From positions 15,922-79,921 of the forward strand of contig CAZVFX010000011.1 in assembly GCA_964626565.1 (NCBI GenBank): a stretch of 64,000 bases of DNA. Reading direction: 5' to 3'. The notes below the pieces were generated by a model. It saw nothing but the letters and a program-made list of their open reading frames with translations. It made no database searches and was not told the origin of the DNA. Both the position numbers and the translations under genes were made by a program. How positions within the stretch are numbered: the first letter of the stretch is position 1; every line of letters starts with the position of its first letter. This document shows, in pieces, positions 2,645-36,230 of the stretch. This stretch comes from an uncultured Myxococcales bacterium. Its GTDB lineage: Bacteria; Myxococcota_A; UBA9042; CAIXZC01.

Positions 2645-3226
2645 ATGAAACAGATTCAGCAAACCGTTCTTTACGAGGAGGCCATGGACCTCGATTTCCT
2701 CGAGGAGGTCCACGCCATTCCTGGTGGAGAAAAGGTCAAGGAGTGCATCCAATGCGGCACCTGCTCCGGGTCTTGCCCGGTAAGTTGGGCCATGGACCAC
2801 ACGCCCCGCCAGATTATCGCGATGATCCGTGCGGGCATGCGTAAGGAGGTGTTGGACAGTCCCACAATCTGGACATGCGCTTCATGCTATTCGTGTGCGG
2901 TCAACTGCCCCCGGGAAATCAAGCTTACCGACGTGATGTACATCTTGAAGAGGATGGCCATCAAGGATGGGTACGAGGGGAGCAACAACGCCGAGGCTCT
3001 GTCTCAGCACTTTGTTGACCTGGTGAACCAGACCGGGCGCAACAACGAGCGGGTGCTATTGCGACGGTATTTCATGAGCACGCGGCCATTCGGTGCGTTG
3101 AAGGAAGTGGGCCTGGGCTGGAAGCTCTTCCGGCGCGGCCGTCTGCCCTCGCAAACAGAGAAGGTGAAAGACATTGAAGGGTTACGCAAGCTCATTGCCA
3201 AGGCCCTGGAAATGGGAGGTGAATAA
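2645..3226 (+). CDS. hdrC: Heterodisulfide reductase subunit C (two 4Fe-4S ferredoxin motifs)
   Basis: CIQCGTCSGSCP and CASCYSCAVNCP motifs; HdrC-like length; stop overlaps the hdrB start (TAATG). Confidence 0.85.
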   Translation: MKQIQQTVLYEEAMDLDFLEEVHAIPGGEKVKECIQCGTCSGSCPVSWAMDHTPRQIIAMIRAGMRKEVLDSPTIWTCASCYSCAVNCPREIKLTDVMYILKRMAIKDGYEGSNNAEALSQHFVDLVNQTGRNNERVLLRRYFMSTRPFGALKEVGLGWKLFRRGRLPSQTEKVKDIEGLRKLIAKALEMGGE

Positions 3227-4104
3227 TGACCTACACCTATTATCCCGGCTGCTCACTCCACGCGACGTCCCGGGCTTACGACGAGTCCATTCGAGCCATC
3301 GCCGGCACTCTGGGCCTCGAACTCGCTGAGGTAGAGGACTGGAACTGCTGCGGGGCCACCGCGTACATGTCGGTCAACGAGACGTTATCCCACTGCCTTA
3401 CCGCGCGCAATCTGGCGCTGGCAGCGGCCCAGGGTGGCGACATGGTGGCGCCGTGCAGCGCGTGCTACACCAACCTGATGAAGACCAACTCATATCTCAA
3501 GGAATTTCCAGACCTTAAGGAGAAGGTCGACTCGGCTCTCGCCGAGGCGGACCTCACTTATGGCGGTGACGTCAAGGTGCGGCACTTCCTCGAAGTGGTT
3601 GTAAACGACATCGGCCTGGAGAAGATCCGCGGCCTGGTGAAGAAACCTCTGGACGGGTTGAAAATCGCGCCCTATTACGGCTGCCAGATTGTCCGGCCGT
3701 TGAGCGTTGAGGACGACCCCGATGAGCCGGTTCTTCTTGATCATCTGCTGGAAGCCCTTGGGGCCACGGTGGTCACCTATCCCATGAAGACGACCTGCTG
3801 CGGTGGCTCCCTCATGGGAACCAAGGAGGAGGTGGCGCGGCGCCTGACGCGTAATCTGCTGCTGTGCGCCGCACAGTTTGAAGCGGACGTCATCGCAGTA
3901 ACCTGCCCGTTGTGCCAGATGAATCTTGACGGCTACCAGACGCGAATCAACAAGGAGTACGGGACCGCGTTCGAAATCCCGGTGCTCTACTTCCCTCAGT
4001 TGATGGGCATGGCCTTTGGAGAACAGGCGGAGCCCCTTGGACTGCAGCGAGGTGTCGTGCCTTTGGGCGAGACAGTTTCGCGCTACGTGGAGGGTTCGAG
4101 ATGA
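3226..4104 (+). CDS. hdrB: Heterodisulfide reductase subunit B (CCG-domain protein)
   Basis: MTYTYYPGCSL N-terminus, two CCG cysteine-rich domains (NCCG...TCCGG), ATGA overlap with hdrA. Confidence 0.85.
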   Translation: MTYTYYPGCSLHATSRAYDESIRAIAGTLGLELAEVEDWNCCGATAYMSVNETLSHCLTARNLALAAAQGGDMVAPCSACYTNLMKTNSYLKEFPDLKEKVDSALAEADLTYGGDVKVRHFLEVVVNDIGLEKIRGLVKKPLDGLKIAPYYGCQIVRPLSVEDDPDEPVLLDHLLEALGATVVTYPMKTTCCGGSLMGTKEEVARRLTRNLLLCAAQFEADVIAVTCPLCQMNLDGYQTRINKEYGTAFEIPVLYFPQLMGMAFGEQAEPLGLQRGVVPLGETVSRYVEGSR

Positions 4105-7100
4105 GCAGCAAGATCGGAGTGTACATTTGCCACTGCGGCACCAACATCTCGGGCAATGTCGACATCGATGAAGTGGTCGAGTTTGCCCGGACTCTTCCCG
4201 AGGTCTCAATCGTACGGGACTACCGGTTCATGTGCTCTGACCCGGGGCAGAACCTCATCCAGGAGGACATCGACAAGATGGGCCTCGACAGGGTGGTGGT
4301 AGCCTCATGTTCCCCTTTGATGCATGAGCCGACTTTCCGGGGTGCGTGCGAGCGGCAGGGGCTTAACGCCTATCTGTTCACCATGGCCAACATCCGTGAG
4401 CATTGCTCGTGGGTCTCGTTCGATTCCGGCGTGGCCACTGATAAGGCCAAGGCCCTTATCGCCGGTTCTGTGCGGCGAGCCGCCTTCCTGGCCCCTTTGG
4501 AGCAGAAGACTGTTCCGGTGAATCCGAACACTCTGGTGGTAGGCGCCGGCATCGCGGGCATTCAGGCGGCGTTGGACATTGCCGATGCAGGGCACAAGGT
4601 ATACCTGGTGGAGAAAGACAGCTCCATCGGCGGCCACATGGCCAAGTTTGACAAGACCTTCCCCACCCTGGACTGCTCCGCATGTATCCTGACCCCGAAG
4701 ATGGTGCAAGTGGGTCAGCACCCTAACATCGAGTTACTCACCTGTTCTACGGTGGAGGAAGTAACCGGATACGTTGGCAATTTCAAGGCGAAGGTAAAAT
4801 CCACTCCGCGCTTTGTGGACGCGGCCAAGTGCACGTCCTGCGGTGAGTGCACCAAGGTTTGCCCCGTCGATGTCAGCAACGAATTCGAAGAAGGCATGTG
4901 CGACCGGAAGGCGGTGTACCGGAACTTCCCGCAGGCTGTACCGAACACCTTCCTCATCGACCACCCGCAAGCGGCCCCCTGCCAGGCAACCTGCCCGGTG
5001 GGACAGCAGGTGCAGGGCTATGTGGCGCTGGTGGCCCAGGGCAAGTTCAACGAAGCCCACGAACTGATTCGAAAAACCAGCGCGTTGCCTTCGATCTGCG
5101 GACGCGTTTGTTACCATCCCTGCGAAACCAACTGCAAGCGAGAGGCAGTTGATGACCCGGTGGCAGTAAAAGGGTTGAAACGTTTCGTCCTGGACAACTC
5201 GCCGCTGCCCGAAATCGAGCCTCCCCCGAGTTCAGGGAAGAAGGTGGCCATTGTTGGCTCGGGGCCGGCCGGACTTACCGCCGCGCACGACCTGGCCTTG
5301 AAAGGTCACGACGTCACGGTGCTCGAAGCGCAGGCAGAGCTGGGAGGCATGCTGAGGCTCGGCATTCCGGCGTACAGGCTCCCGCGCAACATTATTAAGA
5401 ATGACATTGACTTCATCCGCAAACTGGGGGTGAAATTCCAGACCAACACCCTTGTGGATGCAGCTAGATTCAGCCAACTCCGGGCAACTCACGACGCACT
5501 CTTCCTGGGTGTGGGAGCTCACACGGCTCTGGCCCTGGGGCTCGAGGACGACACGGTGGCGGGCATCGAGTTGGGAATCGACTTTTTGCGCAAGGCCAAC
5601 CTCGGCCTTGACGTTGCGGTGGGGCAGCGGGTCGCAGTCATCGGTGGTGGCAACACCGCGGTGGATGCGGCCCGCACCGCAATCCGTATGGGCTCCCAGC
5701 GGGTCGACATCCTCTATCGCCGCTCGCGGGCTGAAATGCCTGCTGACGACGAGGAGATCGAGGCGCTGCTTGAGGAAGGGCTGAACATAGAGTTCCTGGT
5801 GGCGCCCACCAAGGTACTTCACAAAGACGGCAAATTGACCGGTCTCAAGGTCGTGCAGATGGAATTGGGTGAGCCTGACGCCAGCGGCCGGCGCCGGCCG
5901 ATACCGATTGCAGGCAGCGAAGGGACCGTGGAATACGACATGGTGATCCCCGCAATCAGCCAGAAACCCGATAACGGGTTCGCTGAAAACTCGGGCATGG
6001 AGTTGACCCGGTGGGGCACCATTTCCGTAAACACGGTGAACTGCAGCACAAACATACCCAGGGTCTTTGCCGGCGGCGACAACGTACGAGGCCCGGCCTC
6101 CGTAATCGAAGCGATGGCTGACGGCAAGCGGGCTGCCACCGCCATCCACAACCTGCTTTCCGGCCGCTCTTTGAGTGATGGGCTGACTGCACCCGAACCG
6201 TACGACCTTGAACTGAGCGAAGAAGAACGCCTTACTCTCAAGGTGGATACATCGGTGGAGAAGCGAGTCAAGATGCCGACCCTCGACCCTGCCAAGCGGG
6301 TGACCTCTTTCGACGAGGTCGAACTGGGATACACCGAGGCAATGGCCAGGGACGAGGCGGCGAGATGCCTCAGTTGCGGCGTGTGTTCCGAATGCGGAGA
6401 ATGCGCCCGGGTATGCGAGCCGGGAGCCATCGACTACGACATGAAAGAAACGGTTCATGAAGTGGAAATCGGGTCGGTGATCGTGGCAACGGGGTTTGAA
6501 GCTTTCGACTCGAAGGAGGCGGTGCGTTACGGGTACGGCAAGTTCCCCGATGTTTACACCGGGCTTGAGTTCGAGCGGATGAACAGCGCTTCAGGTCCCA
6601 CCGACGGCCAGTTGCGGCTGAAGAACGGGGAGACCCCCAAGAGTGTGGGCATCATCCATTGCGTCGGCAGCCGCGACAAGCACCACAATGAGTATTGCTC
6701 CCGGGTTTGCTGCATGTACTCCTTGAAGTTTGCTCACCTCGTGGCCGAGAAGACGGGTGCGGAGGTGTACAACTTCTACATTGACATGCGCTGTTTCGGC
6801 AAGGGGTACGAGGAGTTCTACAACCGCTTGCTGGAAGAAGACGTCCGGTTCGTGCGTGGGCGGGCCGCATTTGTCACCGACTTCCCTCTTAACGAAGAGG
6901 AACGGGACAAGTTGGTGATTCGAGTTGAAGACACGCTCATCGGCGAAATGCGGCGCATCCCGGTGGACATGGTAATTCTCTCCACCGGTCTCGAAGCGAG
7001 AAAGGACTCCCAGGACGTGTCCCGGATGTTCAACATCAGCAGGGGGAAGGACGGCTTCTTCCTGGAGAAGCACCCGAAGCTGGCCCCGGTAGCCACGGCT

Positions 7101-7469
7101 ACGGACGGAATCTTCCTCGCCGGCGCGTGCCAGGGTCCAAAGGACATCCCCGACACCGTGGCCCAGGGTTCAGCCGCTGCGGCCCAGGTGCTGTCCATGG
7201 TCGCCAGGGGAGAGATCAGCATCGAGGTTGCCACTTGTACGGTGAACGAGGAGCTGTGCGGGGGATGCCGGGTGTGCAATTCGGCCTGCGCCCTGTCGGC
7301 GATTACGTTCGAAGAAGAAAAGGGCGTTTCAGTGATAAACGACGCTCTGTGCAAGGGTTGCGGGACGTGTGCGGCGGCTTGCCCCAGCGGGGCCATTTCC
7401 GCCAAGCATTTCACGGACGAGCAGATAATCTCTGAAATCGAGGGGGTGCTCCATGACGTACGAGCCTAA
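4101..7469 (+). CDS. hdrA: Large HdrA-like flavoprotein (1122 aa) with an inserted GltD/NADPH-oxidoreductase-like module (HdrL-type)
   Basis: HdrA N-terminal Cys cluster and the FAD fold VVGAGIAGIQAALDIADAGHKVYLVEK. An internal block KKVAIVGSGPAGLTAAHDLALKGHDV...VAVIGGGNTAVDAA (two Rossmann folds) is preceded by a CxxxCP Fe-S region typical of glutamate synthase small subunit. C-terminal CVGSRD plus a 2x[4Fe-4S] region. Confidence 0.8.
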   Translation: MSSKIGVYICHCGTNISGNVDIDEVVEFARTLPEVSIVRDYRFMCSDPGQNLIQEDIDKMGLDRVVVASCSPLMHEPTFRGACERQGLNAYLFTMANIREHCSWVSFDSGVATDKAKALIAGSVRRAAFLAPLEQKTVPVNPNTLVVGAGIAGIQAALDIADAGHKVYLVEKDSSIGGHMAKFDKTFPTLDCSACILTPKMVQVGQHPNIELLTCSTVEEVTGYVGNFKAKVKSTPRFVDAAKCTSCGECTKVCPVDVSNEFEEGMCDRKAVYRNFPQAVPNTFLIDHPQAAPCQATCPVGQQVQGYVALVAQGKFNEAHELIRKTSALPSICGRVCYHPCETNCKREAVDDPVAVKGLKRFVLDNSPLPEIEPPPSSGKKVAIVGSGPAGLTAAHDLALKGHDVTVLEAQAELGGMLRLGIPAYRLPRNIIKNDIDFIRKLGVKFQTNTLVDAARFSQLRATHDALFLGVGAHTALALGLEDDTVAGIELGIDFLRKANLGLDVAVGQRVAVIGGGNTAVDAARTAIRMGSQRVDILYRRSRAEMPADDEEIEALLEEGLNIEFLVAPTKVLHKDGKLTGLKVVQMELGEPDASGRRRPIPIAGSEGTVEYDMVIPAISQKPDNGFAENSGMELTRWGTISVNTVNCSTNIPRVFAGGDNVRGPASVIEAMADGKRAATAIHNLLSGRSLSDGLTAPEPYDLELSEEERLTLKVDTSVEKRVKMPTLDPAKRVTSFDEVELGYTEAMARDEAARCLSCGVCSECGECARVCEPGAIDYDMKETVHEVEIGSVIVATGFEAFDSKEAVRYGYGKFPDVYTGLEFERMNSASGPTDGQLRLKNGETPKSVGIIHCVGSRDKHHNEYCSRVCCMYSLKFAHLVAEKTGAEVYNFYIDMRCFGKGYEEFYNRLLEEDVRFVRGRAAFVTDFPLNEEERDKLVIRVEDTLIGEMRRIPVDMVILSTGLEARKDSQDVSRMFNISRGKDGFFLEKHPKLAPVATATDGIFLAGACQGPKDIPDTVAQGSAAAAQVLSMVARGEISIEVATCTVNEELCGGCRVCNSACALSAITFEEEKGVSVINDALCKGCGTCAAACPSGAISAKHFTDEQIISEIEGVLHDVRA

Positions 7470-7917
7470 AATCGTCGGTTTCCTCTGTAACTGGTGTTCC
7501 TACACCGGCGCTGATCTGGCAGGCATGTCGCGGATGAAATACGCCCACAACGTTCGTATCGTGCGCGTCATGTGTTCCGGCCGGGTAGACCCCACTTTCG
7601 TGGTGAAAGCCTTCGCCAGCGGGGCGGACGGCGTCCTGGTGGCGGGTTGTCACCCCGGGGACTGCCATTACATCGAGGGCAACTACAAAACCATGCGGCG
7701 CATGCCACTCCTGAAGAAGATGTTGAAAGAATATGGAGTGGACGAGCGCAGGTTCCGACTCGAGTGGATCTCGGCCTCCGAAGGCGACCGGTTCGCAGAG
7801 GTGGTCAACGAGATGTCTGCCGAATTAGCTAAGTTGGGCCCGTGCAGTTTGGGGCAGGAAGGCAACGTGCCTGATCAGCCCTCTGATGTGCAACAGCCAG
7901 CAAACCCTGCCGGCTAA
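7453..7917 (+). CDS. mvhD: MvhD-like (methyl-viologen-reducing hydrogenase delta subunit) [2Fe-2S] electron-transfer protein
   Basis: N-terminus KIVGFLCNWCSYTGADLAG...MCSGRVDP...GCHPGDCHY; overlaps the hdrA end by 17 nt. Confidence 0.8.
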   Translation: MTYEPKIVGFLCNWCSYTGADLAGMSRMKYAHNVRIVRVMCSGRVDPTFVVKAFASGADGVLVAGCHPGDCHYIEGNYKTMRRMPLLKKMLKEYGVDERRFRLEWISASEGDRFAEVVNEMSAELAKLGPCSLGQEGNVPDQPSDVQQPANPAG

Positions 7918-7937: not shown

Positions 7938-8894
7938 ATGGCAAAGCTCAAACTCGCTTCGTACTGGGCGGCGGCATGCGGGGGCTGCGACACCGCCATC
8001 CTCGACATTCATGAGAAGATACTGGATCTTGCCGCGGCTGCCGATATTCTGTTCTGGCCCATTGCGGTGGACACCAAGTACAAGGACGTTGAGGCCATGC
8101 CGGACGGTCACATCGATGTCACCTTGTTCCACGGCGCCATTCGCAACTCCGAGAACGAGTACTTGGCCAAGCTGCTCAGAGCCAAGAGCAAAGTACTGGT
8201 GGCATTCGGAAGCTGCTCCCACCTGGGTGGGATCCCCGGCCTGGCCAACATGTTCAACCGTGACGAAATCTTCGAGCGAGTCTATCAAACGACTCCCAGC
8301 ACGGTGAACGAGGCCGGCACGCTGCCTCACATGGTCACCAAGGTGCCGGAAGGCGAACTGGAACTGCCGGAGTTCTACAACACGGTGCGAACTTTGGACC
8401 AGGTGGTGGACGTGGAGTACTATGTTCCCGGTTGCCCTCCGCCCCCGGCACAGATATGGGCTGTGGTGGAGGCCATCGTTTCCGGGAATCTCCCGCCCGC
8501 CGGGTCGATAGTCGGAGCGTCGGACAAGTCGCAGTGCGACGAATGTCCTCGTGAGAAGACCGACATGAAGATGAAAGAGGTGAAGCGTATCGCCACCCAT
8601 CAACCGGACCAGACCCGATGTTTCCTCGAGCAGGGCTTTGTTTGCCTGGGCGCTGCCACACGAGGAGGCTGCGACACCCGCTGCCAGACTTCGGGGGTCG
8701 GTTGCAGGGGATGCTTCGGGCCCACGGCTGAAGTGTTGGACCAGGGGGCCAAGGCTCTCTCCTCCATCGCGTCGGTGCTGGACTCCAACGACCCGCAGGA
8801 AATTGCCCGGATGCTGGAGCAGATAGACGATCCCGTCAGGTTGTTTGATCGTTTCAGTATACCCGCCTCGTTCCTCAGGAGGAAATCGCTATGA
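7938..8894 (+). CDS. mvhG: Group-3 [NiFe]-hydrogenase small subunit (MvhG-like)
   Basis: N-terminal YWAAACGGCDTAIL and a C-terminal Cys-rich Fe-S cluster region (CDECP...C...C...CRGCFGP); ATGA overlap with the large-subunit gene. Confidence 0.8.
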   Translation: MAKLKLASYWAAACGGCDTAILDIHEKILDLAAAADILFWPIAVDTKYKDVEAMPDGHIDVTLFHGAIRNSENEYLAKLLRAKSKVLVAFGSCSHLGGIPGLANMFNRDEIFERVYQTTPSTVNEAGTLPHMVTKVPEGELELPEFYNTVRTLDQVVDVEYYVPGCPPPPAQIWAVVEAIVSGNLPPAGSIVGASDKSQCDECPREKTDMKMKEVKRIATHQPDQTRCFLEQGFVCLGAATRGGCDTRCQTSGVGCRGCFGPTAEVLDQGAKALSSIASVLDSNDPQEIARMLEQIDDPVRLFDRFSIPASFLRRKSL

Positions 8895-10354
8895 AGACCG
8901 TAACCATTGACCCGATCACTCGATTGGAAGGCCATGGGAAGATCACCATCTTCCTCAACGATGCGGGAGGGGTGGAAAACGCCTACTTCCAGGTCCCGGA
9001 ACTGAGGGGCTTCGAGAAGTTCGTTGAGGGTATGCCGGTGGAGGAGGTCCCAAGGGTGGTGCAACGCATCTGCGGGGTCTGACCGGCCGCACACCATCTG
9101 GCCTCGGGTAAGGCCGTAGACGCAGTATACAAAGCAGATCCTCCGGTGGCAGCAAAAAAACTGAGAGAGATGTTCTACAGCGCTCACTACGTGCACAGCC
9201 ACATCGCGCACTTTTACGCTCTGGCCGCGGCCGACTTCGTTGTCGGCCCTGATGCAGACCCGGCAGAGCGGAACATCCTCGGCGTGGTGGGAAAGGTGGG
9301 TGTGGAGATTGGCGGGGAAGTGATCAAGCATCGCGCTATTGCGCAGAACATCCAGATCGCGATCTCAGGACGGTCGACCCACCCTGTATGGTGCGTTCCC
9401 GGTGGGGTAAGCAAGGGGATCACCGAGGAGCAACGCCTGGAAATCATCGAGCAGGCGAAAAGCTGTGTGGAGTTCTCCAAGTTCTCCCTTAAGATCTTCA
9501 ACGATGTGGTGCTGGGCAACAAGGCTTACCTCGACCTGGTGTTGAGCGACACTTACGAGCTGGACTCGTACTACATCGGGACTGTGGATAAGAACAACCA
9601 TGTGAACTTCTACCACGGCGACCACCGGGTAGTGGATCAGGAGTGCAACGAGGTCTTTCGCTATCAGGATCATGAGTACCTGGATTACCTGGCCGAGCAC
9701 GTCGAGAAGTTCACTTATCTAAAGTTCCCGTATCTCAAGAAGATCGGCTGGAAGGGCATGGTGGACGGTAAAGATTCGGGGGTCTACCAGGCCACTCCGC
9801 TCAGTCGCCTCAACGCGGCAGTAGGCATGGCCACGCCGGCCGCCCACGCTGAGTATGAACGCATGTTCGAGACCCTGGGCGGCAAGCCGGTGAAGAAGCT
9901 CCTCGCCACCCACTGGGCGCGTCTGGTGGAGTTGCTCTATGCGGCAGAGCGCCTCCTGGAGCTGGCCCAGGACCCGGAGGTTGCATCTCCCGATGTCCGC
10001 AACCTGCCCACGGAGACTCCGTCCGAAGGTGTCGGCATCGTGGAAGCCCCCCGGGGCATTCTGACTCACCACTACAAAACCGACGAAAGAGGAATCGTTA
10101 CCGCGGCCAACATAATCGTTGGGACGACCAACAACCACGCCCCCATCTCCATGGCCATCAAGAACGCAGCCGAAAAGCTGATTCAGCCAGGCCAGGAGAT
10201 TGGGCAGGGCCTCCTCAACATGGTGGAGATGGCCTTCCGCATTTATGACCCCTGCTTCTCTTGCGCAACTCACACTTTGCCGGGGGAGATGCCCCTTATC
10301 GTTGAGGTGCGTGATCACAATGAAGAGGTGGTCCACCGGGTGGCGCGCTCATGA
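8891..10354 (+). CDS. mvhA: [NiFe]-hydrogenase large subunit (MvhA-like). The in-frame TGA at 9080-9082 falls exactly on the second Cys of the N-terminal RxCGxC Ni-binding motif, so it is a probable selenocysteine. The track splits it into 8891..9082 and 9146..10354.
   Basis: Translation reads ...VVQRICGV[TGA]PAAHHLASGKAVDAVY..., compared with MvhA [20 protein letters not shown]. The same frame stays open across the TGA, with no other stop between 9083 and 9145. The C-terminal DPCFSCATH motif and a 26-aa extension are intact. Confidence 0.75.
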
Positions 10355-10815
10355 AGACCCGGGTCATCGGCCTCGGCAACTCCATCCTCACCGACGACGG
10401 TGTTGGAATTGTGGTTGTATCCGAACTGCAGAAGACTCCGCAGGGCGGGGAGGTCGACGTCATCAGGTCCGAGGTAGCCGGCTTCGCACTGTTGGAGCTG
10501 ATGAGCGGCTGGGACCGTGTCATTCTCGTTGATGCAATCAAGTTCGACGACCTTGAGCCCGGCACCATTGTCCGCATCGATCCTGCCGACTTGCGAACCT
10601 CACTCAGGTTGCGATCGGTTCACGAAATCGACCTTCCTACCGCGCTTGCGTTCGGTCGCAAGCTCAAGATCCCCATGCCTGAGAAGGTAGTGGTCATCGG
10701 CATCCAGGCCGATGACATTCTCACGTTCGGAGAGACGTTAACTCCGGCGCTCGCCAAGGCTGTGCCAGAGGCCGTCAATCTGGTACTGGAGGAGTTGGCC
10801 GAACCCCAGGGGTGA
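10351..10815 (+). CDS. Hydrogenase maturation endopeptidase (HycI/HoxW/FrhD, peptidase A31 family)
   Basis: GLGNSILTDDGVGIVV motif; size 154 aa; ATGA-coupled to the large subunit, whose C-terminal extension it would cleave. Confidence 0.8.
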   Translation: MKTRVIGLGNSILTDDGVGIVVVSELQKTPQGGEVDVIRSEVAGFALLELMSGWDRVILVDAIKFDDLEPGTIVRIDPADLRTSLRLRSVHEIDLPTALAFGRKLKIPMPEKVVVIGIQADDILTFGETLTPALAKAVPEAVNLVLEELAEPQG

Positions 10816-10821
10816 ACCCGC

Positions 10822-11487
10822 CTATTTCATCTGGATAAGCCCGACCTTGATTGCAAATTGCGTGAGCTTTGACCGATTGCGAATACCCAGCTTGTCGGTG
10901 AGATTGAACCTGTGCGCCATGACGGTTTTCACCGCCAGCCCCAACGCCTCGGCCATCTCCTTGTTGCTATAGCCCTCCGCAATGAGTTTCAGGACCTGTC
11001 GCTCCCGGGGCGTGAGCAGGTTATACGCCGCCTCTTCGCTCTCCGGCTGACCGCCGCCGCCGGGCCCCGCGACGAGTTCCTGGGCCAGGCTGGGATCGAT
11101 GTACATTCCCCCGGCCATCACTCCTCGAATCGCGGCGAGCAGTTCCTCGCCGCGCGCGGACTTAAGAATGTACCCGTTGGCCCCCGCCTCAATGAGCCGC
11201 CGCAAGTAGATCGACTCTCCGTATTGGGTGAGTATGAGAATGCGGATTTCCGAGCGCCGTCGGCGCAACTCAAGGGTGGTCTCCAGTCCGCCCATCCCTT
11301 CCATCGACAGGTCGAGAAGCAGGAGGTCCGGATAGAGCCGGTCTACCAACTCGATGGCGCCCTCGCCCGAGGAGGCTTCGCCCACCACTGTAAACCGCGT
11401 TTCGGTCTGCTCTTCAAGGAAGGACTTCAAGCCCACCCGGAGAACCACATGATCATCGGCAAGAACAACCCTTATGGTCGAACCCAT
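10822..11487 (-). CDS. NarL/LuxR-family response regulator (REC + HTH_LuxR)
   Basis: The N-terminal REC domain (VVLADDH..., conserved D/K positions) and the C-terminal LTPRERQVLKLIAEGYSNKEMAEAL helix-turn-helix. Confidence 0.85.
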   Translation of the reverse strand: MGSTIRVVLADDHVVLRVGLKSFLEEQTETRFTVVGEASSGEGAIELVDRLYPDLLLLDLSMEGMGGLETTLELRRRRSEIRILILTQYGESIYLRRLIEAGANGYILKSARGEELLAAIRGVMAGGMYIDPSLAQELVAGPGGGGQPESEEAAYNLLTPRERQVLKLIAEGYSNKEMAEALGLAVKTVMAHRFNLTDKLGIRNRSKLTQFAIKVGLIQMK

Positions 11488-13881
11488 CTACTCTTCCTCC
11501 CCTGCGGACGTTTCATCGACCAGAGCCGTCGGCACCGTAACTCGAATGGTGGTACCCGCGCCCACCGCGGTGTCCACCTCCATGGTGCCGTTGAGGAGTT
11601 TAGCCCGCTCCTCCATGCCCAGTAATCCCAAGCCCCGCCCGGTCGCGGCCGGAGTGGTCAGCGACAGTTTGGCCACGTCGAAACCGTTACCGTCGTCTTC
11701 GATGGTCAAAGTCACGGCGCGGGGCGAGAAGACCACCGTCGCGATAATATGCTCGGCCAATGCATGCTGGACCGTATTCTGCAGACTCTCCTGAAAGATC
11801 CTGAACAACCTGATGGTGGTCTCCGGCGGCAACTCCCGCTCCTCTCCTTCGAGCACGAAGCGGGTCTTGATGCCCCGTTCCCGCTCTACTCGCTCCAGGT
11901 GCCATTGCAAGGCTGGGAGAAACCCCATGCTGTCAAGCACCGAGGGCCTCAAGTCCAGAGTTATCCGGCGCACCGTATCCTGCATCTTGCGGGTCTGCTC
12001 CTCCAGGTCACGGACCCGATTGGCCAACTCGTCTCTAGGGGCCTCTCCGGCCAGCCTTTCCAACTGCAGGCTGAGCGCAGACAGGTCCTGGCTCACCGTA
12101 TCGTGAAGCTCCCGGGCGACCCGTCGCCGTTCTTCCTCTTGTGCGGACAGCACTCTGCGCAGCAGTTCACGCCGCTGGGTCTGCCGAAGCAGCTCCTCAT
12201 CGGCCAATATCCGGTTGGCCGCGCTCATGGCGATATGGTGAAGCAGGGAGTGAAGCCTGCGCTCCTCGAGCACAGCCTCCCCGTCGGGCTGCAGAAGCAC
12301 GCACTTGACCAGAGGCCCCCGGGGAATCGCCAACTCCGCAACCAGCACCGCGTCCGTGCGATCCAACCCGGTACCGTCCCGCTCGTCCCCCGGTATGTCC
12401 TTGATGACAAAGCCGTCTTCTGAAGAAGCAAGCAGCGTACCCCTACGGTCCCTGGGCAACACCGTGCAGAGGTCGAGCGCGGAGTCGACCTGCGCAGGGA
12501 GCAGACCGCGGGATGCTTGCAGTTTCCGATCCCGAAATTGCATGCGCAACGCACCCTGCGAAAACCCCAGCACATCCAGTGTGTGTTCAAGACCGCGGCG
12601 AACAATAGCCTCGGTGTGCGGCACATCCAACGATGACTTGCTGATGCCGTCCAGAGCCAGCACCAACCGGTTGGAAGCCTCGGCCTCTTCCCGCAAGAGC
12701 ACCTGCTGCCGCTCAGTCAGCGAAAGTGCTTCCACCAGCCCGCTGCGCCAGGCATTCAGAACAGACGCGAGCCTCCCCACTTCCCCTTCCCCCAGGGAGG
12801 GCAATTCCCGGTTGGATCCGGAAAGCTGGCCCATTCGTACTGCGTTCTCCAGCCTCTTCACCGGACCAACGACCCGGTGGGCCAGAAATGCGCCGGCCAA
12901 GAGAAACAGCGTCAACACCAGCCCCTCAACAAGGATGAGCTTCCATCTCAATTCGGTGGCCGGGGCCAAAGCCTCCTCTTCCGACTGCCGCACGGCAATC
13001 CCCAGAGGAAACGACGGAAAAGGTGCAAATGCCAGCACGTCTTCGTCACGGCTGACCTCTCCCGCACCCACCTCATGGCAACGGTGGCACCGCCCGGAAA
13101 AGGACCGCCCTTCCGCGATCGCTTCGCTTAGCAAATCGTTGTGCGCAGTAACGGAGCGTCTCCCGCTTTCACGTTCAGGTGCTAGCGACGCGCCGCTCGC
13201 AGTGACCAGGTCGAGCTCCCCAGTCTCCCCGAGTACAAACCCCTCAAACGTGCTGCCCAGTTCCAGGGCTTCCCCGTAAACCAGGCCCCCGACGCAACCG
13301 GGCCGGACCGCGCCGGAGGGTGCCGGAGCCACCGCCTTGACTACGATGACCGAGGGCGTTGCACCTGCGAATCCGGCCGCCTCGGCTCGGCCGGTTTTGC
13401 GCGCCAACTCGCACAGCCGCCCCGCTTTGCCCGGTAGATCGTGTCCGGAGTGGGATGCAACCACCGTGCGCCCCTCGACGTCCACAATGAAGGCGTCGCG
13501 GAAGAAGAGTGACGACTGGCAGGTTCTCTGCAACCCCGCAGCAAGCTGAGAGGAGCCCAGATCGTCGGCACCGGGCAGTTGACCCACCAGCGTGGCGACA
13601 CGGGAGATTTCCGTGCGCAACTCGGCTTCCAGATGCCTGCCGGCTATTCTCGCCAGTTGGACCCGCTCTTCGAGAAGCCGGTGTTCGAACGAATCCCTCA
13701 CCGAACCCGAGTGATAGAAGAGTGCAGCCATGACTGCCACTCCCCCGGCCAGGAGAACAGCGAGGAAGCGCGCATAGAGGCTGGATCGCCAGGGCAGTCG
13801 CTGGACATCCCCGATGAGAGGCCATCCGGGTGACTTGACGCCCGGAATCTCGGGCGGATTATGGGTGTGCTCCTTGTTCAT
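11488..13881 (-). CDS. Sensor histidine kinase (HisKA_3/HATPase, NarX-like) with a large periplasmic sensor domain between two TM helices; the periplasmic domain carries a CXXCH motif
   Basis: TM1 FLAVLLAGGVAVMAALFY and TM2 LILVEGLVLTLFLLAGAFL. HisKA_3 ELHDTVSQDLSAL and a C-terminal ATPase. The start is probably ATG at 13879-13881 (MNKEH, RBS GGAG); the track ORF extends to 13965. GRCHRCHE lies at 13075-13089. Confidence 0.75.
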   Translation of the reverse strand: MNKEHTHNPPEIPGVKSPGWPLIGDVQRLPWRSSLYARFLAVLLAGGVAVMAALFYHSGSVRDSFEHRLLEERVQLARIAGRHLEAELRTEISRVATLVGQLPGADDLGSSQLAAGLQRTCQSSLFFRDAFIVDVEGRTVVASHSGHDLPGKAGRLCELARKTGRAEAAGFAGATPSVIVVKAVAPAPSGAVRPGCVGGLVYGEALELGSTFEGFVLGETGELDLVTASGASLAPERESGRRSVTAHNDLLSEAIAEGRSFSGRCHRCHEVGAGEVSRDEDVLAFAPFPSFPLGIAVRQSEEEALAPATELRWKLILVEGLVLTLFLLAGAFLAHRVVGPVKRLENAVRMGQLSGSNRELPSLGEGEVGRLASVLNAWRSGLVEALSLTERQQVLLREEAEASNRLVLALDGISKSSLDVPHTEAIVRRGLEHTLDVLGFSQGALRMQFRDRKLQASRGLLPAQVDSALDLCTVLPRDRRGTLLASSEDGFVIKDIPGDERDGTGLDRTDAVLVAELAIPRGPLVKCVLLQPDGEAVLEERRLHSLLHHIAMSAANRILADEELLRQTQRRELLRRVLSAQEEERRRVARELHDTVSQDLSALSLQLERLAGEAPRDELANRVRDLEEQTRKMQDTVRRITLDLRPSVLDSMGFLPALQWHLERVERERGIKTRFVLEGEERELPPETTIRLFRIFQESLQNTVQHALAEHIIATVVFSPRAVTLTIEDDGNGFDVAKLSLTTPAATGRGLGLLGMEERAKLLNGTMEVDTAVGAGTTIRVTVPTALVDETSAGEEE

Positions 13882-14053
13882 TGGCTCCGGACCGCCAACG
13901 GGCGAATCAAGCCCGTCTTTGACGCCTCTATCTAAAGCGATGGCAGCGGGATTGTCAACGACCACCGCTCACGGTTGCTGGTCATGGGACAAGCCATTTG
14001 GTATGCTCTTGCCGTATTCTTGTGCAACATCCTGCTTCGTCGAGGTCAGACCT

Positions 14054-26518: not shown

Positions 26519-26741
26519 TTCATTCCTCCTGCCGGCTTGTACCTGCCAGTCTCCACTTCCATCGGCGATGGGGCTATTCTAGCATGCATCTCCGGGACCT
26601 CCAGAAAGAAGGTGCGCCAGCCACCGCCCCTCCATTTCTGCAATTCTTGCGGAATTTCATTGACACTTTGTCGCCTTGCGGTACACTTCGAGGATATTTG
26701 ATTTCCCGGAAGCCGACCACTTGCAACCATGGAGGAACGCC

Positions 26742-28073
26742 GTGCCAACCAACAAGAAGGCTGAACTGCTGGCAAGAATGAAGAAAGACGAGGTAAAATT
26801 CCTTCGGCTCCAGTTCACCGACATAATGGGTGTCAACAAGAACATCGAGTTGCCCAAGTCGGAATTTGCAAAGGCGCTGGACGGACAGATGCTGTTCGAC
26901 GGTTCTTCAGTGCAGGGGTTCGTGCGCATCGAGGAATCGGATATGCTGCTGCAGCCCGACCTGGACACCTACACGGTGTATCCGTGGGAGACTCCCGGGG
27001 GGACGATTGCGCGGCTCATCTGCGACATTCATCGTCCCGACGGCTCCCCTTTCGAAGGTTGTCCCCGCCTGGCCTTGAAGCGGATGTGCGCCAAGGCTGC
27101 TAAGATGGGTTACACCATGAGCGCCGGACCCGAGCCGGAGTTCTTCCTGTTTGAGCGCGGCGATCGGGAAGAGCCCACGGTAGTTACCCACGACCGTGGG
27201 GGCTACTTCGACCTGACACCCATCGATCGAGGCGAGGAAGCGCGGCGGGAGATGTGCGATGCACTCGAGGCCCTCGGGTTTGCGGTGGAGGCCGCCCACC
27301 ACGAGGTGTCGCCGGCGCAGCACGAAATCGATTTCAAGCATCGGCCCGCGCTGGAGACTGCAGATAATGTCGCCACCTTCCGTTTCGTGGTGCGCAAAGT
27401 CGCACTTGATTTCGGCCTTCATGCGACATTCATGCCCAAGCCGATCTTCGGTATCAACGGCAGCGGCATGCACATACATCAGTCACTATACAAAGACGGG
27501 ACTAATGCGTTCTACGACCCCGACGACCCCAACGGGCTGTCTCCCGTGGCCCGCGGCTACATTGCCGGGCTTCTACGGCACAGCCGGGCCTACTGTGCCG
27601 TGACCAATCCGCTCGTAAACAGTTACAAGCGATTGGTGCCGGGCTACGAGGCGCCCACGCACATCGCCTGGTCGGAGCAGAACCGCAGCCCGCTGGCCCG
27701 GGTGCCGGCGCGGCGTGGCGACGGCACCAGGATTGAATTGCGCATGCCCGACCCGTCATGCAATCCCTACCTGGCGCTGACGGTGAGCCTGGCCGCCGGA
27801 CTCGACGGCATGGAGCAGGGTTGGGACTGCGGCCCTCCGGTCAACAAGAACATCTTCGAAATGAGCCAGCGGGAACGCCGGCGCTTGAAGATCGACTCCC
27901 TCCCCGGCAACCTGGGTGAGGCAATCGAAATGATGGCCAAGAGCAAGTTCGTACGGGAAGTGCTCGGTGACCACATTTTCAGCAACTTTGTCGACGCCAA
28001 GCGGGCAGAGTGGCACGACTACATCGCGCGGGTCCATAGCTGGGAATTGGACCGCTACCTGGCAACCTACTAA
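26742..28073 (+). CDS. glnA: Glutamine synthetase type I
   Basis: FDGSSVQGF, GSGMHIHQSLY, SYKRLVPGYEAPT and NRSPLARVP motifs. The start is set at GTG 26742 (RBS GGAGGA), 22 codons downstream of the track start. Confidence 0.85.
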   Translation: MPTNKKAELLARMKKDEVKFLRLQFTDIMGVNKNIELPKSEFAKALDGQMLFDGSSVQGFVRIEESDMLLQPDLDTYTVYPWETPGGTIARLICDIHRPDGSPFEGCPRLALKRMCAKAAKMGYTMSAGPEPEFFLFERGDREEPTVVTHDRGGYFDLTPIDRGEEARREMCDALEALGFAVEAAHHEVSPAQHEIDFKHRPALETADNVATFRFVVRKVALDFGLHATFMPKPIFGINGSGMHIHQSLYKDGTNAFYDPDDPNGLSPVARGYIAGLLRHSRAYCAVTNPLVNSYKRLVPGYEAPTHIAWSEQNRSPLARVPARRGDGTRIELRMPDPSCNPYLALTVSLAAGLDGMEQGWDCGPPVNKNIFEMSQRERRRLKIDSLPGNLGEAIEMMAKSKFVREVLGDHIFSNFVDAKRAEWHDYIARVHSWELDRYLATY

Positions 28074-34390: not shown

Positions 34391-34492
34391 GCGAGCGGGG
34401 GTCCAAAAGTGAGAGGTAAAGGCTGGGGAGGAGGTAATCAGAGAAGATGGTTTCAGGCGAGTTCAGGCCGTCTCATTGAAGGACCCCCGCTC
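34391..34492. other. Perfect 12-bp inverted repeat GAGCGGGGGTCC ... GGACCCCCGCTC flanking about 78 nt, inside a 660-bp convergent non-coding gap (33862-34520). Candidate structured RNA or regulatory element.
   Basis: The two arms are exact reverse complements. The flanking genes converge, so no promoter is needed here, and the gap is unusually long for this gene-dense window. Confidence 0.3.
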
Positions 34493-34520
34493 CGGTAGAC
34501 TGTGTGGGCCGGGCCGCAGT

Positions 34521-36155: not shown

Positions 36156-36230
36156 GCTGTCCCTCCTTCCGTTGAAAAGAACGTTCCCGGGAGCCGGGCT
36201 TCCCAAAAAGGCAGCCCTTCCCCATCTTCA

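What the first reader, a model, noticed from the sequence alone, without database searches (positions are those of the whole stretch)
8891..10354. In-frame TGA exactly at a Ni-ligand cysteine of the [NiFe]-hydrogenase large subunit: probable selenocysteine at an atypical N-terminal position
The translation reads ...PRVVQRICGV-TGA-PAAHHLASGKAVDA... and the same frame continues for another 424 codons to the canonical DPCFSCATH terminus. The TGA (9080-9082) aligns with the second Cys of the N-terminal RxCGxC motif. In [NiFe] enzymes this residue is one of the two Cys that bridge Ni and Fe. Known [NiFeSe] hydrogenases instead replace the first Cys of the C-terminal DPCxxC motif, a terminal Ni ligand, and that motif is all-Cys here. 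Surrounding conservation and tight translational coupling of the whole operon argue against a pseudogene. If real, this would be a selenoprotein hydrogenase with Se in a bridging position, and in any case a gene that standard gene callers split into a 63-aa and a 402-aa ORF. A short GC hairpin lies about 20 nt downstream (UGGCC-UCGGGUAA-GGCCG); I cannot verify it as a SECIS element by eye.
Basis: partly seen in the sequence, partly recalled or inferred. Interest (0 to 1): 0.78.

Follow-up and report, generated by a model that had tools for sequence, protein, structure and literature searches.

The report
Selenocysteine codon in MvhA hydrogenase subunit
The stop-like TGA inside this hydrogenase gene is almost certainly a real selenocysteine codon with its own conserved RNA signal, placing selenium at a metal-bridging site; this rare arrangement has been noted before, turns out to be widespread, and has never been studied experimentally.

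Summary
Window 8891-10354 is a single 487-codon frame for an Hdr-linked (Mvh/group 3c-like) [NiFe]-hydrogenase large subunit. One TGA (9080-9082) sits at the second Cys of RxCGxC, and the C-terminal DPCFSCATH motif is all-Cys.

The TGA is not an error. Four metagenome assemblies carry the identical sequence. The same column is TGA in 21 of 80 related species genomes (TGC/TGT in the rest, never TAA/TAG), across Acidobacteriota, Firmicutes, Dehalococcoidia, Krumholzibacteriota and Latescibacteria.

All 22 TGA genes share an invariant hairpin 17 nt downstream: U-GGCC-U[CGKGYA]A-GGCC-R. Its codons have almost no synonymous variation (0.10 bit against a gene mean of 1.36). Cys-type genes vary freely there.

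In a metagenome scan for the hairpin, 113 of 120 hits had TGA upstream.

The best explanation is SECIS/SelB-directed selenocysteine insertion, giving a Ni-Fe-bridging selenolate. The sel genes and tRNA-Sec could not be checked.

It is not new in kind. Baltazar et al. (2011) listed one Group 3 CxxU sequence, as cited in PMC13582414, which itself describes such motifs in Group 4. I found no report of its breadth in this group. Verdict: a real, new member of a known but uncharacterised kind.

The parts
2645..3226 (+). HdrC-like 4Fe-4S dicluster subunit, first gene of the operon
   Evidence: Pfam Fer4_8/Fer4_17. Its end overlaps the start of the next gene by 1 nt.
3226..4104 (+). HdrB-like subunit (two CCG domains)
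   Evidence: Pfam CCG, 1.6e-27.
4101..7469 (+). HdrA with an inserted GltD/NfnB-like NAD(P)-binding module (1122 aa). It has Cys (TGT) at residue 195, where relatives have TGA.
   Evidence: Pfam and NCBIfam; codon 195; TGA in relatives.
7453..7917 (+). MvhD (FlpD) adaptor subunit. It has Cys (TGT) at residue 66, where relatives have TGA.
   Evidence: Pfam FlpD 9e-57.
7938..8894 (+). MvhG-type hydrogenase small subunit. It ends in TGA, overlapping the mvhA ATG (ATGA).
   Evidence: Pfam Oxidored_q6 and NCBIfam VhuG; stop codon.
8891..10354 (+). Full-length mvhA-type [NiFe(Se)] large subunit: 487 codons including the in-frame UGA at codon 64. AGGAGG lies about 8 nt upstream.
9065..9082 (+). N-terminal Ni-binding motif R-I-C-G-V-U (residues 59-64)
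   Evidence: alignment to RICGIC of 5ODC_F.
9080..9082 (+). In-frame UGA, the proposed selenocysteine codon (residue 64, second Cys of RxCGxC, predicted Ni-Fe bridging ligand)
9099..9116 (+). Proposed SECIS hairpin UGGCCU-CGGGUA-AGGCCG (6 bp, 6-nt loop, G at loop position 2). It overlaps codons 70-76 (L-A-S-G-K-A-V).
   Evidence: Invariant in 22/22 TGA-type genes. Lowest synonymous variation in the gene. Absent in exact form from 59/59 Cys-type genes. 113/120 metagenome hits have TGA upstream. Folds at -8.6 kcal/mol.
10247..10273 (+). C-terminal Ni-binding motif DPCFSCATH, all Cys (not the canonical [NiFeSe] position)
10274..10351 (+). 26-residue C-terminal extension after the motif His, presumably removed by the maturation protease (inferred)
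   Evidence: The inference rests on established [NiFe] maturation and on the protease gene immediately downstream.
10351..10815 (+). HycI/HyaD-family hydrogenase maturation endopeptidase, start overlapping the mvhA stop (ATGA)
   Evidence: Pfam HycI and NCBIfam TIGR00072.

Best explanation
The TGA at 9080-9082 is a programmed selenocysteine codon in the large subunit of an Hdr-associated (MvhADG/HdrABC, group 3c-like) [NiFe]-hydrogenase. During translation, the hairpin at 9099-9116 (6-bp stem U-GGCC-U/A-GGCC-R with loop CGKGYA), starting 17 nt after the UGA, is proposed to bind SelB-GTP-Sec-tRNA(Sec). UGA is then read as Sec, and the ribosome continues to make the 487-residue precursor. After Ni-Fe(CO)(CN)2 insertion, the protease encoded downstream removes the 26-residue C-terminal tail. 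In the mature enzyme Sec64 replaces the second Cys of RxCGxC, so a selenolate rather than a thiolate would bridge Ni and Fe. The terminal ligand that is Sec in classical [NiFeSe] enzymes stays Cys here.

Shown here:
- the codon, its reproducibility and its phylogenetic recurrence;
- the hairpin's TGA-specific conservation;
- translation-level conservation across the UGA.

Inferred:
- SelB binding;
- Sec rather than Cys as the inserted residue;
- bridging geometry;
- the functional consequence, which is probably tuning of activity or H2 affinity rather than the O2 protection linked to the C-terminal Sec.
For: (1) Reproducibility. Four assemblies from different samples are 100% identical over 3-4 kb including the TGA.

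(2) Recurrence. Codon 64 is TGA in 21 of 80 related GTDB species genomes, TGC/TGT in 59, and never TAA/TAG. Every gene has exactly one U and an all-Cys DPCxxC. Carriers include the isolate Desulfotruncus alcoholivorax DSM 16058 (L007). A 64-aa fragment from the isolate Desulfallas thermosapovorans DSM 6562 is also on record.

(3) RNA signal.
- Columns 20-37 after the UGA are invariant apart from R37, and form a 6-bp helix in 22/22 genes.
- Third-position entropy of codons 70-75 is 0.096 bit against a gene mean of 1.36. This is the lowest 6-codon window in the gene; the next lowest non-overlapping window is 0.76.
- The same six codons in Cys-type genes vary freely, with per-codon third-position entropy between 0.55 and 1.94 bit, mean about 1.5.
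- The full helix is present in 22/22 U-type against 8/59 Cys-type genes (Fisher p = 1.6e-13).

(4) Independent test.

(5) Read-through. Codons 65-69 (P-A/G/S-A/S-H-H) are conserved as protein while varying synonymously. No ATG/GTG/TTG occurs before codon 70 in any U-type gene, and none before codon 82-94 in four of them, including the window.

(6) Ordinary code. TGA is an ordinary stop in this window; mvhG, mvhA, hdrB and the protease gene all end in TGA, 6 of 20 confident genes in total.

(7) Sec use in related lineages. hdrA and mvhD next to mvhA carry TGA at conserved Cys codons in many related loci. HdrA and MvhD are established selenoprotein families (PMC13188914).

(8) Literature. N-terminal CxxU is predicted to bridge Ni and Fe, and bacterial SECIS elements have G at apical-loop position 1 or 2 (PMC13582414). 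Engineered Hyd-1 C79U, the equivalent position, is active at 13% of native (PMC8020662).
Against: - No selA, selB, selD or tRNA-Sec was found in the 64-kb window, in about 7 kb of extra contig, or in the flanks of the related loci. The rest of the genome could not be searched.
- The hairpin stem is invariant, so no compensatory covariation proves the structure. The only variable pair is U-A/U-G.
- Folding the 66-nt stretch is not more stable than shuffles (z = +1.36). U-type and Cys-type 60-mers have similar MFE (p = 0.58).
- No Rfam family matches.
- A SECIS does not by itself prove Sec. tRNA(ReC) systems can deliver Cys at SECIS-directed UGA (caveat stated in PMC13582414).
- No protein-level or 75Se data exist.
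Confidence: 0.8

Rival explanations
1. The UGA is recoded through the same SECIS/SelB route, but cysteine is inserted through a tRNA(ReC)/selC*-type tRNA. The mature enzyme would then be an ordinary all-Cys [NiFe] hydrogenase.
For: [quoted passage not shown] The conserved hairpin is equally compatible with this route.
Against: There would be little reason to maintain UGA plus an 18-nt RNA constraint across many phyla merely to insert Cys, which TGC/TGT relatives encode directly. Neighbouring hdrA and mvhD use TGA at sites in families known as genuine selenoproteins. No tRNA of any kind was found nearby.
Confidence: 0.07
2. The large subunit is truly split or truncated: translation ends at the TGA, and a second polypeptide starts downstream, by analogy with the VhuA/VhuU split in Methanococcus.
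For: Gene callers produce 63-aa and 394-417-aa ORFs everywhere. In 18 of 22 genes ATG or TTG occurs at codon 70.
Against: The split would delete the Ni/Fe ligand itself. Residues 65-69 (P-x-A-H-H) lie between the TGA and any possible restart, yet stay conserved as protein with synonymous change. In the window, L002, L005 and L017 the first possible restart is at codon 82-94, with no conserved position. Only TGA is ever used, never TAA/TAG.
Confidence: 0.03
3. Sequencing or assembly error, or a pseudogene: TGC/TGT misread or mutated to TGA in a decaying gene.
For: A single-base change from TGC/TGT gives TGA. The window comes from a metagenome-type assembly.
Against: The sequence is identical in four assemblies from different samples. 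The same codon is TGA in 21 other species genomes and in 113 metagenome contigs. All these genes have intact downstream frames and 62-82% protein identity.
Confidence: 0.01
4. Genome-wide reassignment of UGA to a sense codon (Trp or Gly; genetic codes 4 or 25).
For: One related contig (L014) is labelled Patescibacteria, a group that uses code 25.
Against: In the window TGA terminates hdrB, mvhG, mvhA and the protease gene, 6 of 20 confident genes. Trp or Gly cannot ligate Ni/Fe. L014 groups with Krumholzibacteriota/Latescibacteria sequences and is probably mis-binned.
Confidence: 0.01

Closest known systems
N-terminal CxxU [NiFeSe] hydrogenase variants (one Group 3 and two Group 1 sequences listed by Baltazar et al. 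2011; Group 4b/4g CxxU types in Takano et al. 2026, PMC13582414)
   Same: Both have an in-frame UGA at the second Cys of the N-terminal CxxC Ni-binding motif, predicted to bridge Ni and Fe, with an all-Cys C-terminal motif. Both have a SECIS-like stem-loop within about 50 nt that carries G at apical-loop position 1 or 2. Sec and Cys types are distributed in a mosaic, and gene callers split the gene.
   Different: This gene is a soluble Hdr-linked Mvh-type (group 3c-like) enzyme, not a membrane-bound Group 4 complex. In this group the U-type is common (21 of the 80 closest GTDB species genomes), whereas the Group 4 figure is about 0.2%. The SECIS core is one invariant 18-mer shared by distant clades. 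I could not read Baltazar et al. directly, so I cannot say which Group 3 sequence they listed.
Canonical [NiFeSe] hydrogenases (Desulfomicrobium baculatum / D. vulgaris HysAB; Methanococcus Vhu/Fru)
   Same: They share the large-subunit fold (PF00374 and PDB hits). One Ni ligand is encoded by UGA. The archaeal Vhu enzymes share the MvhADG/Hdr context.
   Different: In those enzymes Sec is the first residue of the C-terminal UxxC motif, a terminal Ni ligand next to the proton-relay Glu. Here that residue is Cys (TGC) and Sec is at the bridging N-terminal position. Archaeal SECIS elements lie in the 3'-UTR, whereas this one lies inside the coding region.
MvhA of the HdrABC-MvhAGD complex of Methanothermococcus thermolithotrophicus (PDB 5ODC chain F)
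   Same: It is the best solved relative (E = 8e-109, aligned over residues 4-467). RICGVU aligns with RICGIC and DPCFSCATH with DPCLSCATH. The gene neighbourhood is the same: hdrCBA, mvhD, mvhG, mvhA.
   Different: It is all-Cys and archaeal. The window's HdrA carries an extra GltD-like NAD(P)-binding module. The NCBIfam VhuA score of 395 bits is below the 800-bit equivalog cut-off.
Engineered E. coli Hyd-1 C79U (Evans et al. 2021, PMC8020662)
   Same: Sec occupies the same ligand position, the second Cys of the N-terminal motif.
   Different: It is an artificial UAG-programmed substitution in a Group 1d O2-tolerant enzyme. It kept 13% of native H2-oxidation activity, had a lower KM for H2, and showed poorer tolerance to prolonged O2 exposure. 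It shows the position tolerates Se but says little about a naturally adapted enzyme.

Membership tests
[NiFe]-hydrogenase large subunit (PF00374) | N-terminal RxCGxC and C-terminal DPCxxCxxH Ni/Fe-binding motifs in one polypeptide | tested here: met
   RICGVU at residues 59-64 and DPCFSCATH at 453-461. One ligand codon is UGA. Pfam NiFeSe_Hases 1.6e-35.
[NiFe]-hydrogenase large subunit (PF00374) | Adjacent small subunit and C-terminal-processing endopeptidase | tested here: met
   Oxidored_q6 small subunit at 7938-8894 and HycI-family protease at 10351-10815, both translationally coupled.
Group 3c (Mvh/Hdr-linked) [NiFe]-hydrogenase | mvhD-mvhG-mvhA linked to hdrABC, and closest similarity to characterised MvhA/VhuA | tested here: met
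   The operon is hdrC-hdrB-hdrA-mvhD-mvhG-mvhA. The best PDB hit is MvhA 5ODC_F, 8e-109. The best NCBIfam hit is VhuA.
Group 3c (Mvh/Hdr-linked) [NiFe]-hydrogenase | Formal HydDB classification, or reaching the NCBIfam VhuA equivalog cut-off | tested here: not met
   NF041785 VhuA scored 395 bits against a cut-off of 800, so this is not an equivalog of archaeal VhuA. HydDB itself was not available.
Canonical [NiFeSe] hydrogenase | Sec (UGA) at the first Cys of the C-terminal DPCxxC motif | tested here: not met
   DPCFSC is encoded with Cys codons in the window and in all 80 relatives.
N-terminal CxxU [NiFeSe] variant | In-frame UGA at the second Cys of the N-terminal CxxC motif, aligned with Cys in homologues | tested here: met
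   Codon 64 is TGA in the window and in 21 relatives, and TGC/TGT in 59. It aligns to Cys of 5ODC_F.
Bacterial selenoprotein gene | SECIS stem-loop directly downstream of the UGA, with the apical loop 16-37 nt from the UGA and G at loop position 1 or 2. The loop-G criterion is from PMC13582414. The distance range is the bSECISearch model as I recall it; it was not checked against a source here. | tested here: met
   The hairpin is at +17 to +34 nt after the UGA. The loop CGKGYA starts 22 nt after the UGA and has G at position 2. It is 100% paired in 22/22 genes. It is conserved only in TGA-type genes. bSECISearch itself was not run.
Bacterial selenoprotein gene | Base-pair covariation supporting the SECIS helix | tested here: inconclusive
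   Five of six pairs never vary and one varies on one side (UA:11, UG:11). There are no double changes. The support comes from conservation, not covariation.
Bacterial selenoprotein gene | selA, selB, selC (tRNA-Sec) and selD present in the same genome | not testable with these tools
   None were found in the window, in about 7 kb of extra contig, or in the flanks. Related lineages use TGA at HdrA and MvhD Cys sites.
Bacterial selenoprotein gene | Selenium shown in the protein (75Se, MS, anomalous scattering) | not testable with these tools
   This needs an experiment. Cultured carriers exist: Desulfotruncus alcoholivorax DSM 16058 and Desulfallas thermosapovorans DSM 6562.

The most novel reading that the evidence does not exclude
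CxxU-type MvhA is not a sporadic oddity. It would be a widespread, long-maintained subclass of Hdr-linked hydrogenases, found in at least five phyla and in about a quarter of the closest species genomes. A selenolate would bridge Ni and Fe, specified by one universally conserved 18-nt SECIS that even dictates residue 73 (Gly or Cys). This would be a second natural solution for using Se in [NiFe] catalysis, distinct in chemistry from the terminal-Sec enzymes and possibly tuned for the low-potential, H2-limited electron-bifurcating niche. It has never been characterised biochemically and is systematically mis-annotated as two ORFs.
Probability: 0.6. Interest if true: 0.6.

Novelty: new member of a known kind. 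Interest (0 to 1): 0.5.

Why it matters
All mechanistic understanding of why hydrogenases use selenium comes from enzymes with Sec as a terminal Ni ligand. A natural enzyme with a bridging selenolate would test whether Se at the Ni-Fe bridge changes hydride binding, H2 affinity, catalytic bias or O2 sensitivity. So far only the engineered Hyd-1 C79U variant addresses this.

Two cultured carriers could make the question directly testable:
- Desulfotruncus alcoholivorax DSM 16058, where the TGA was checked in DNA here;
- Desulfallas thermosapovorans DSM 6562, known so far only from a 64-aa fragment on record, so its locus still needs confirming.

There is also a practical point. The gene is routinely split into a 63-64-aa and a ~400-aa ORF in public annotation. 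Group 3c hydrogenases in many sediment and wetland MAGs are therefore truncated or missed, and selenoproteome counts (which list MvhA only as UxxC) are too low.

Tried and rejected
- Folding 9080-9145 as one piece gave an MFE no better than shuffles (z = +1.36) and picked an alternative pairing. MFEs of 60-mers do not separate U-type from Cys-type genes (p = 0.58). The SECIS shows up through conservation, not stability.
- Rfam at a permissive E-value gave only chance hits.
- ARAGORN found no tRNA-Sec in the window or in 21 related loci.
- Pfam scans of about 30 window ORFs found no SelA, SelB or SelD.
- A tblastn with an E. coli SelD sequence recalled from memory hit only one weak match (L051, 26.5% identity, E = 1.8e-5), which was not followed up. 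A negative result from a recalled probe is weak evidence.
- Extending the contig on the left showed no sel genes. The right-end look-up found no record.
- A second candidate in-frame TGA at 35064 is a shadow frame of the minus-strand gene 34521-36206.
- Searching the 63-aa fragment against 1.84 billion cluster representatives returned mostly contig-end fragments and gave no usable count of U-type genes.
- A lower SECIS stem (His68 codon pairing with Asp77 codon) was examined by eye on alignment A1 and shows no consistent pairing or covariation.
- Taxonomy stayed unresolved. GlnA points to Planctomycetota/Myxococcota/Deltaproteobacteria MAGs at 73-76% identity. MvhA points to Acidobacteriota MAGs at 78-82%.
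Full report
**1. Observation**

Window 8891-10354 (+) is one reading frame of 487 codons. It is preceded by AGGAGG and starts at an ATG that overlaps the TGA stop of the upstream gene. It contains a single internal TGA at 9080-9082, in the context PRVVQRICGV-TGA-PAAHHLASGK. DPCFSCATH lies at residues 453-461, and 26 residues follow it. Mechanical ORF listing gives a 63-aa and a 402-aa ORF. Public gene calls on identical contigs make the same split.

**2. Context**

Pfam and NCBIfam identify a translationally coupled operon:

| Coordinates | Product |
|---|---|
| 2645-3226 | HdrC-like |
| 3226-4104 | HdrB-like |
| 4101-7469 | HdrA, 1122 aa, with an inserted GltD/NfnB-like NAD(P)-binding module |
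| 7453-7917 | MvhD |
| 7938-8894 | MvhG small subunit |
| 8891-10354 | the large subunit |
| 10351-10815 | HycI/HyaD-type maturation protease |

- The best solved relative of the large subunit is MvhA of the Methanothermococcus HdrABC-MvhAGD complex (5ODC_F, E = 8e-109). RICGV[TGA] aligns with RICGIC.
- The second Cys of RxCGxC is one of the two Ni-Fe bridging ligands. This rests on established [NiFe] structural knowledge, and PMC13582414 states that N-terminal CxxU is predicted to bridge Ni and Fe.
- The enzyme is therefore an Mvh-type, group 3c-like hydrogenase. It is not an equivalog of archaeal VhuA (395 bits against a cut-off of 800).

**3. Not an error, pseudogene or code change**

- Four contigs from different JGI and ENA samples are 100% identical to the window over 3.2-4.2 kb, including the TGA.
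- Among the 80 closest loci in one-genome-per-species GTDB contigs, codon 64 is TGA in 21 and TGC/TGT in 59. It is never TAA or TAG.
- Every gene has exactly one such TGA and an all-Cys DPCxxC motif.
- Carriers are labelled Acidobacteriota, Firmicutes, Dehalococcoidia/Chloroflexota, Krumholzibacteriota, Latescibacteria and UBP1. The Firmicutes include Desulfotruncus alcoholivorax DSM 16058, Ca. Desulfopertinax and a Peptococcaceae MAG.
- The 64-aa N-terminal fragment also exists in NCBI for Desulfallas thermosapovorans DSM 6562.
- In a neighbour-joining tree the U-types fall in at least two distant clades and are interleaved with Cys-types.
- TGA is a normal stop in this window; 6 of 20 confident genes end in TGA, including mvhG and mvhA.
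- Directly after the TGA, codons 65-69 (P, A/G/S, A/S, H, H) are conserved as amino acids while varying synonymously.
- No ATG/GTG/TTG occurs before codon 70 in any U-type gene, and none before codon 82-94 in four of them, including the window.
- Translation must therefore continue through the UGA.

**4. The RNA signal**

Aligning the 60 nt from the TGA in all 22 U-type genes shows that columns 20-36 are invariant except K28 and Y30: U GGCC U CGKGYA A GGCC. Column 37 is G or A.

- This is a 6-bp helix (U20-R37, G21-C36, G22-C35, C23-G34, C24-G33, U25-A32) with a 6-nt loop carrying G at position 2.
- It is paired in 132 of 132 cells. The one variable pair switches between U-A and U-G.
- On its own it folds at -8.6 kcal/mol.
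- The helix lies in codons 70-76, so its invariance shows up as missing synonymous change. Mean third-position entropy of codons 70-75 is 0.096 bit in U-type genes, against a gene-wide mean of 1.36.
- That is the lowest 6-codon window in the gene. The next lowest non-overlapping window is 0.76.
- In the 59 Cys-type genes the same six codons vary freely (per-codon third-position entropy 0.55-1.94 bit, mean about 1.5), using all Ala, Ser and Lys codons.
- The full helix occurs in 22/22 U-type and 8/59 Cys-type genes (p = 1.6e-13). The exact motif occurs in 22/22 U-type and 0/59 Cys-type genes.
- The loop requirement also restricts residue 73 to Gly (GGU) or Cys (UGU/UGC) in U-types. Cys-types have A, G, T, S or V there.
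- As an independent test, I scanned JGI metagenome contigs for the hairpin with TGA, TGC or TGT allowed upstream.
- The element fits the published description of bacterial SECIS elements: a stem-loop within about 50 nt and G at apical-loop position 1 or 2 (PMC13582414).
- Caveats: there is no compensatory covariation, no Rfam family matches, and thermodynamics of the longer region gives no signal.

**5. Selenocysteine use in these lineages**

In many related loci the adjacent hdrA and mvhD genes carry TGA at conserved Cys positions. These positions align with window HdrA C195 (CSAC, giving CxxU) and with window MvhD C66. This holds whether mvhA is U-type or Cys-type. HdrA and MvhD are established selenoprotein families (PMC13188914). 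In the window both positions are TGT, so MvhA-U64 would be the only Sec in this operon. The Sec machinery of the window's own organism could not be examined. No tRNA-Sec or sel genes lie in the window, in about 7 kb of additional contig, or in the flanks of the related loci.

**6. Mechanism**

- Shown: UGA at a metal-ligand Cys column, a TGA-specific conserved hairpin 17 nt downstream, and translation across the UGA.
- Inferred: SelB-GTP-Sec-tRNA(Sec) binds the hairpin and inserts Sec64. Hyp proteins load the Ni-Fe centre, and the co-encoded protease removes the 26-residue tail after His461. The mature MvhA then has a mu-selenolate between Ni and Fe, while the classical Sec position remains Cys.
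- The functional consequence is unknown. The engineered equivalent, E. coli Hyd-1 C79U, kept 13% of native activity. That was the highest of the four Sec variants. It also had a lower KM for H2 and did not gain O2 tolerance (PMC8020662). Any advantage therefore probably differs from that of the C-terminal Sec.
- The main rival that cannot be excluded is SECIS-directed insertion of Cys by a tRNA(ReC) system (PMC13582414).

**7. Comparison with what is known, and novelty**

- Classical [NiFeSe] enzymes have Sec at the first Cys of the C-terminal motif. That feature was tested here and is not met.
- The CxxU arrangement itself is not new. PMC13582414 (Sept 2026) cites Baltazar et al. 2011 for two Group 1 sequences and one Group 3 sequence with N-terminal CxxU. 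It also describes 47 Group 4 sequences with CxxU, UxxC or UxxU.
- PMC8020662 mentions 'purported examples' of bridging Sec.
- The 2026 selenoproteome review still lists MvhA only as UxxC (PMC13188914).
- My literature searches found no description of this variant's breadth in Hdr-linked enzymes.
- The window gene is therefore a new member of a known but experimentally uncharacterised kind.
- What this analysis adds is that the variant is common in this group, that it shares one invariant SECIS core across distant clades, and that it occurs in cultured isolates.

**8. Verdict**

The remaining uncertainty is biochemical: whether Sec or Cys is inserted, and whether the organism has the Sec machinery. 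Interest is moderate (0.5). A specialist would not be astonished, but natural bridging-Se hydrogenases remain unstudied and this makes them accessible.

Noticed in passing
window 4101-7469 (+): HdrA is 1122 aa because a GltD/NfnB-like NAD(P)-binding module (Fer4_20 + Pyr_redox_2, roughly residues 288-780) is inserted into an HdrA2-like protein. This resembles the 'HdrL' type described for Desulfobacterium autotrophicum. It suggests the Mvh/Hdr complex may couple to NAD(P)H.
   Followed up: partly
L006, L013, L015, L017, L019-L025, L027, L028, L037, L048, L054, L075, L077 (hdrA and/or mvhD upstream of mvhA); window HdrA codon 195 and MvhD codon 66: In many related loci, hdrA has TGA at the codon aligned to window HdrA Cys195 (CSAC). 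Similarly, mvhD has TGA at the codon aligned to window MvhD Cys66. This is independent of whether mvhA is U-type or Cys-type. Sec/Cys choice is therefore mosaic among the three genes of one operon. The window has TGT at both sites.
   Followed up: partly
window 9107-9109 (codon 73) and the same column in L001-L080: The SECIS loop (CGKGYA) forces residue 73 to be Gly or Cys in all U-type genes, while Cys-type genes have Ala, Gly, Thr, Ser or Val there. This is an RNA constraint visibly shaping protein sequence next to the active site.
   Followed up: yes
L090, L105, L143, L155, L180, L183, L184: Seven metagenome genes have TGC/TGT at codon 64 but keep the exact hairpin motif. They may be recent Sec-to-Cys reversions with a relic SECIS. 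Two of them (RDIVNRICGIC PWNHH) belong to a more divergent subfamily.
   Followed up: no
window 34476-36101 (+) versus 34521-36206 (-): Two plus-strand ORFs joined by a TGA at 35064 scored as coding-like. Their translation is a low-complexity shadow of the 561-aa minus-strand gene (no Pfam hit), so this is not a second selenoprotein.
   Followed up: yes
L014 (DATKWS010000035.1): This contig is labelled 'Patescibacteria group bacterium'. Its mvhA groups tightly with Krumholzibacteriota/Latescibacteria sequences and uses the same UGA plus SECIS, so it is probably mis-binned.
   Followed up: no
window 26676-28073 (glnA) versus 8891-10354 (mvhA): The closest named GlnA relatives are Planctomycetota, Myxococcota and Deltaproteobacteria MAGs (73-76% identity). 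The closest MvhA relatives are Acidobacteriota MAGs (78-82%). The host taxonomy is unresolved, and the hydrogenase operon may have been acquired horizontally.
   Followed up: partly
window 10822-13965 (-): A LuxR-type response regulator (10822-11487) and an 825-aa HisKA_3 histidine kinase (11488-13965) lie immediately downstream, convergent with the hydrogenase operon. This arrangement is conserved on all identical contigs and may be a regulator of the operon.
   Followed up: no
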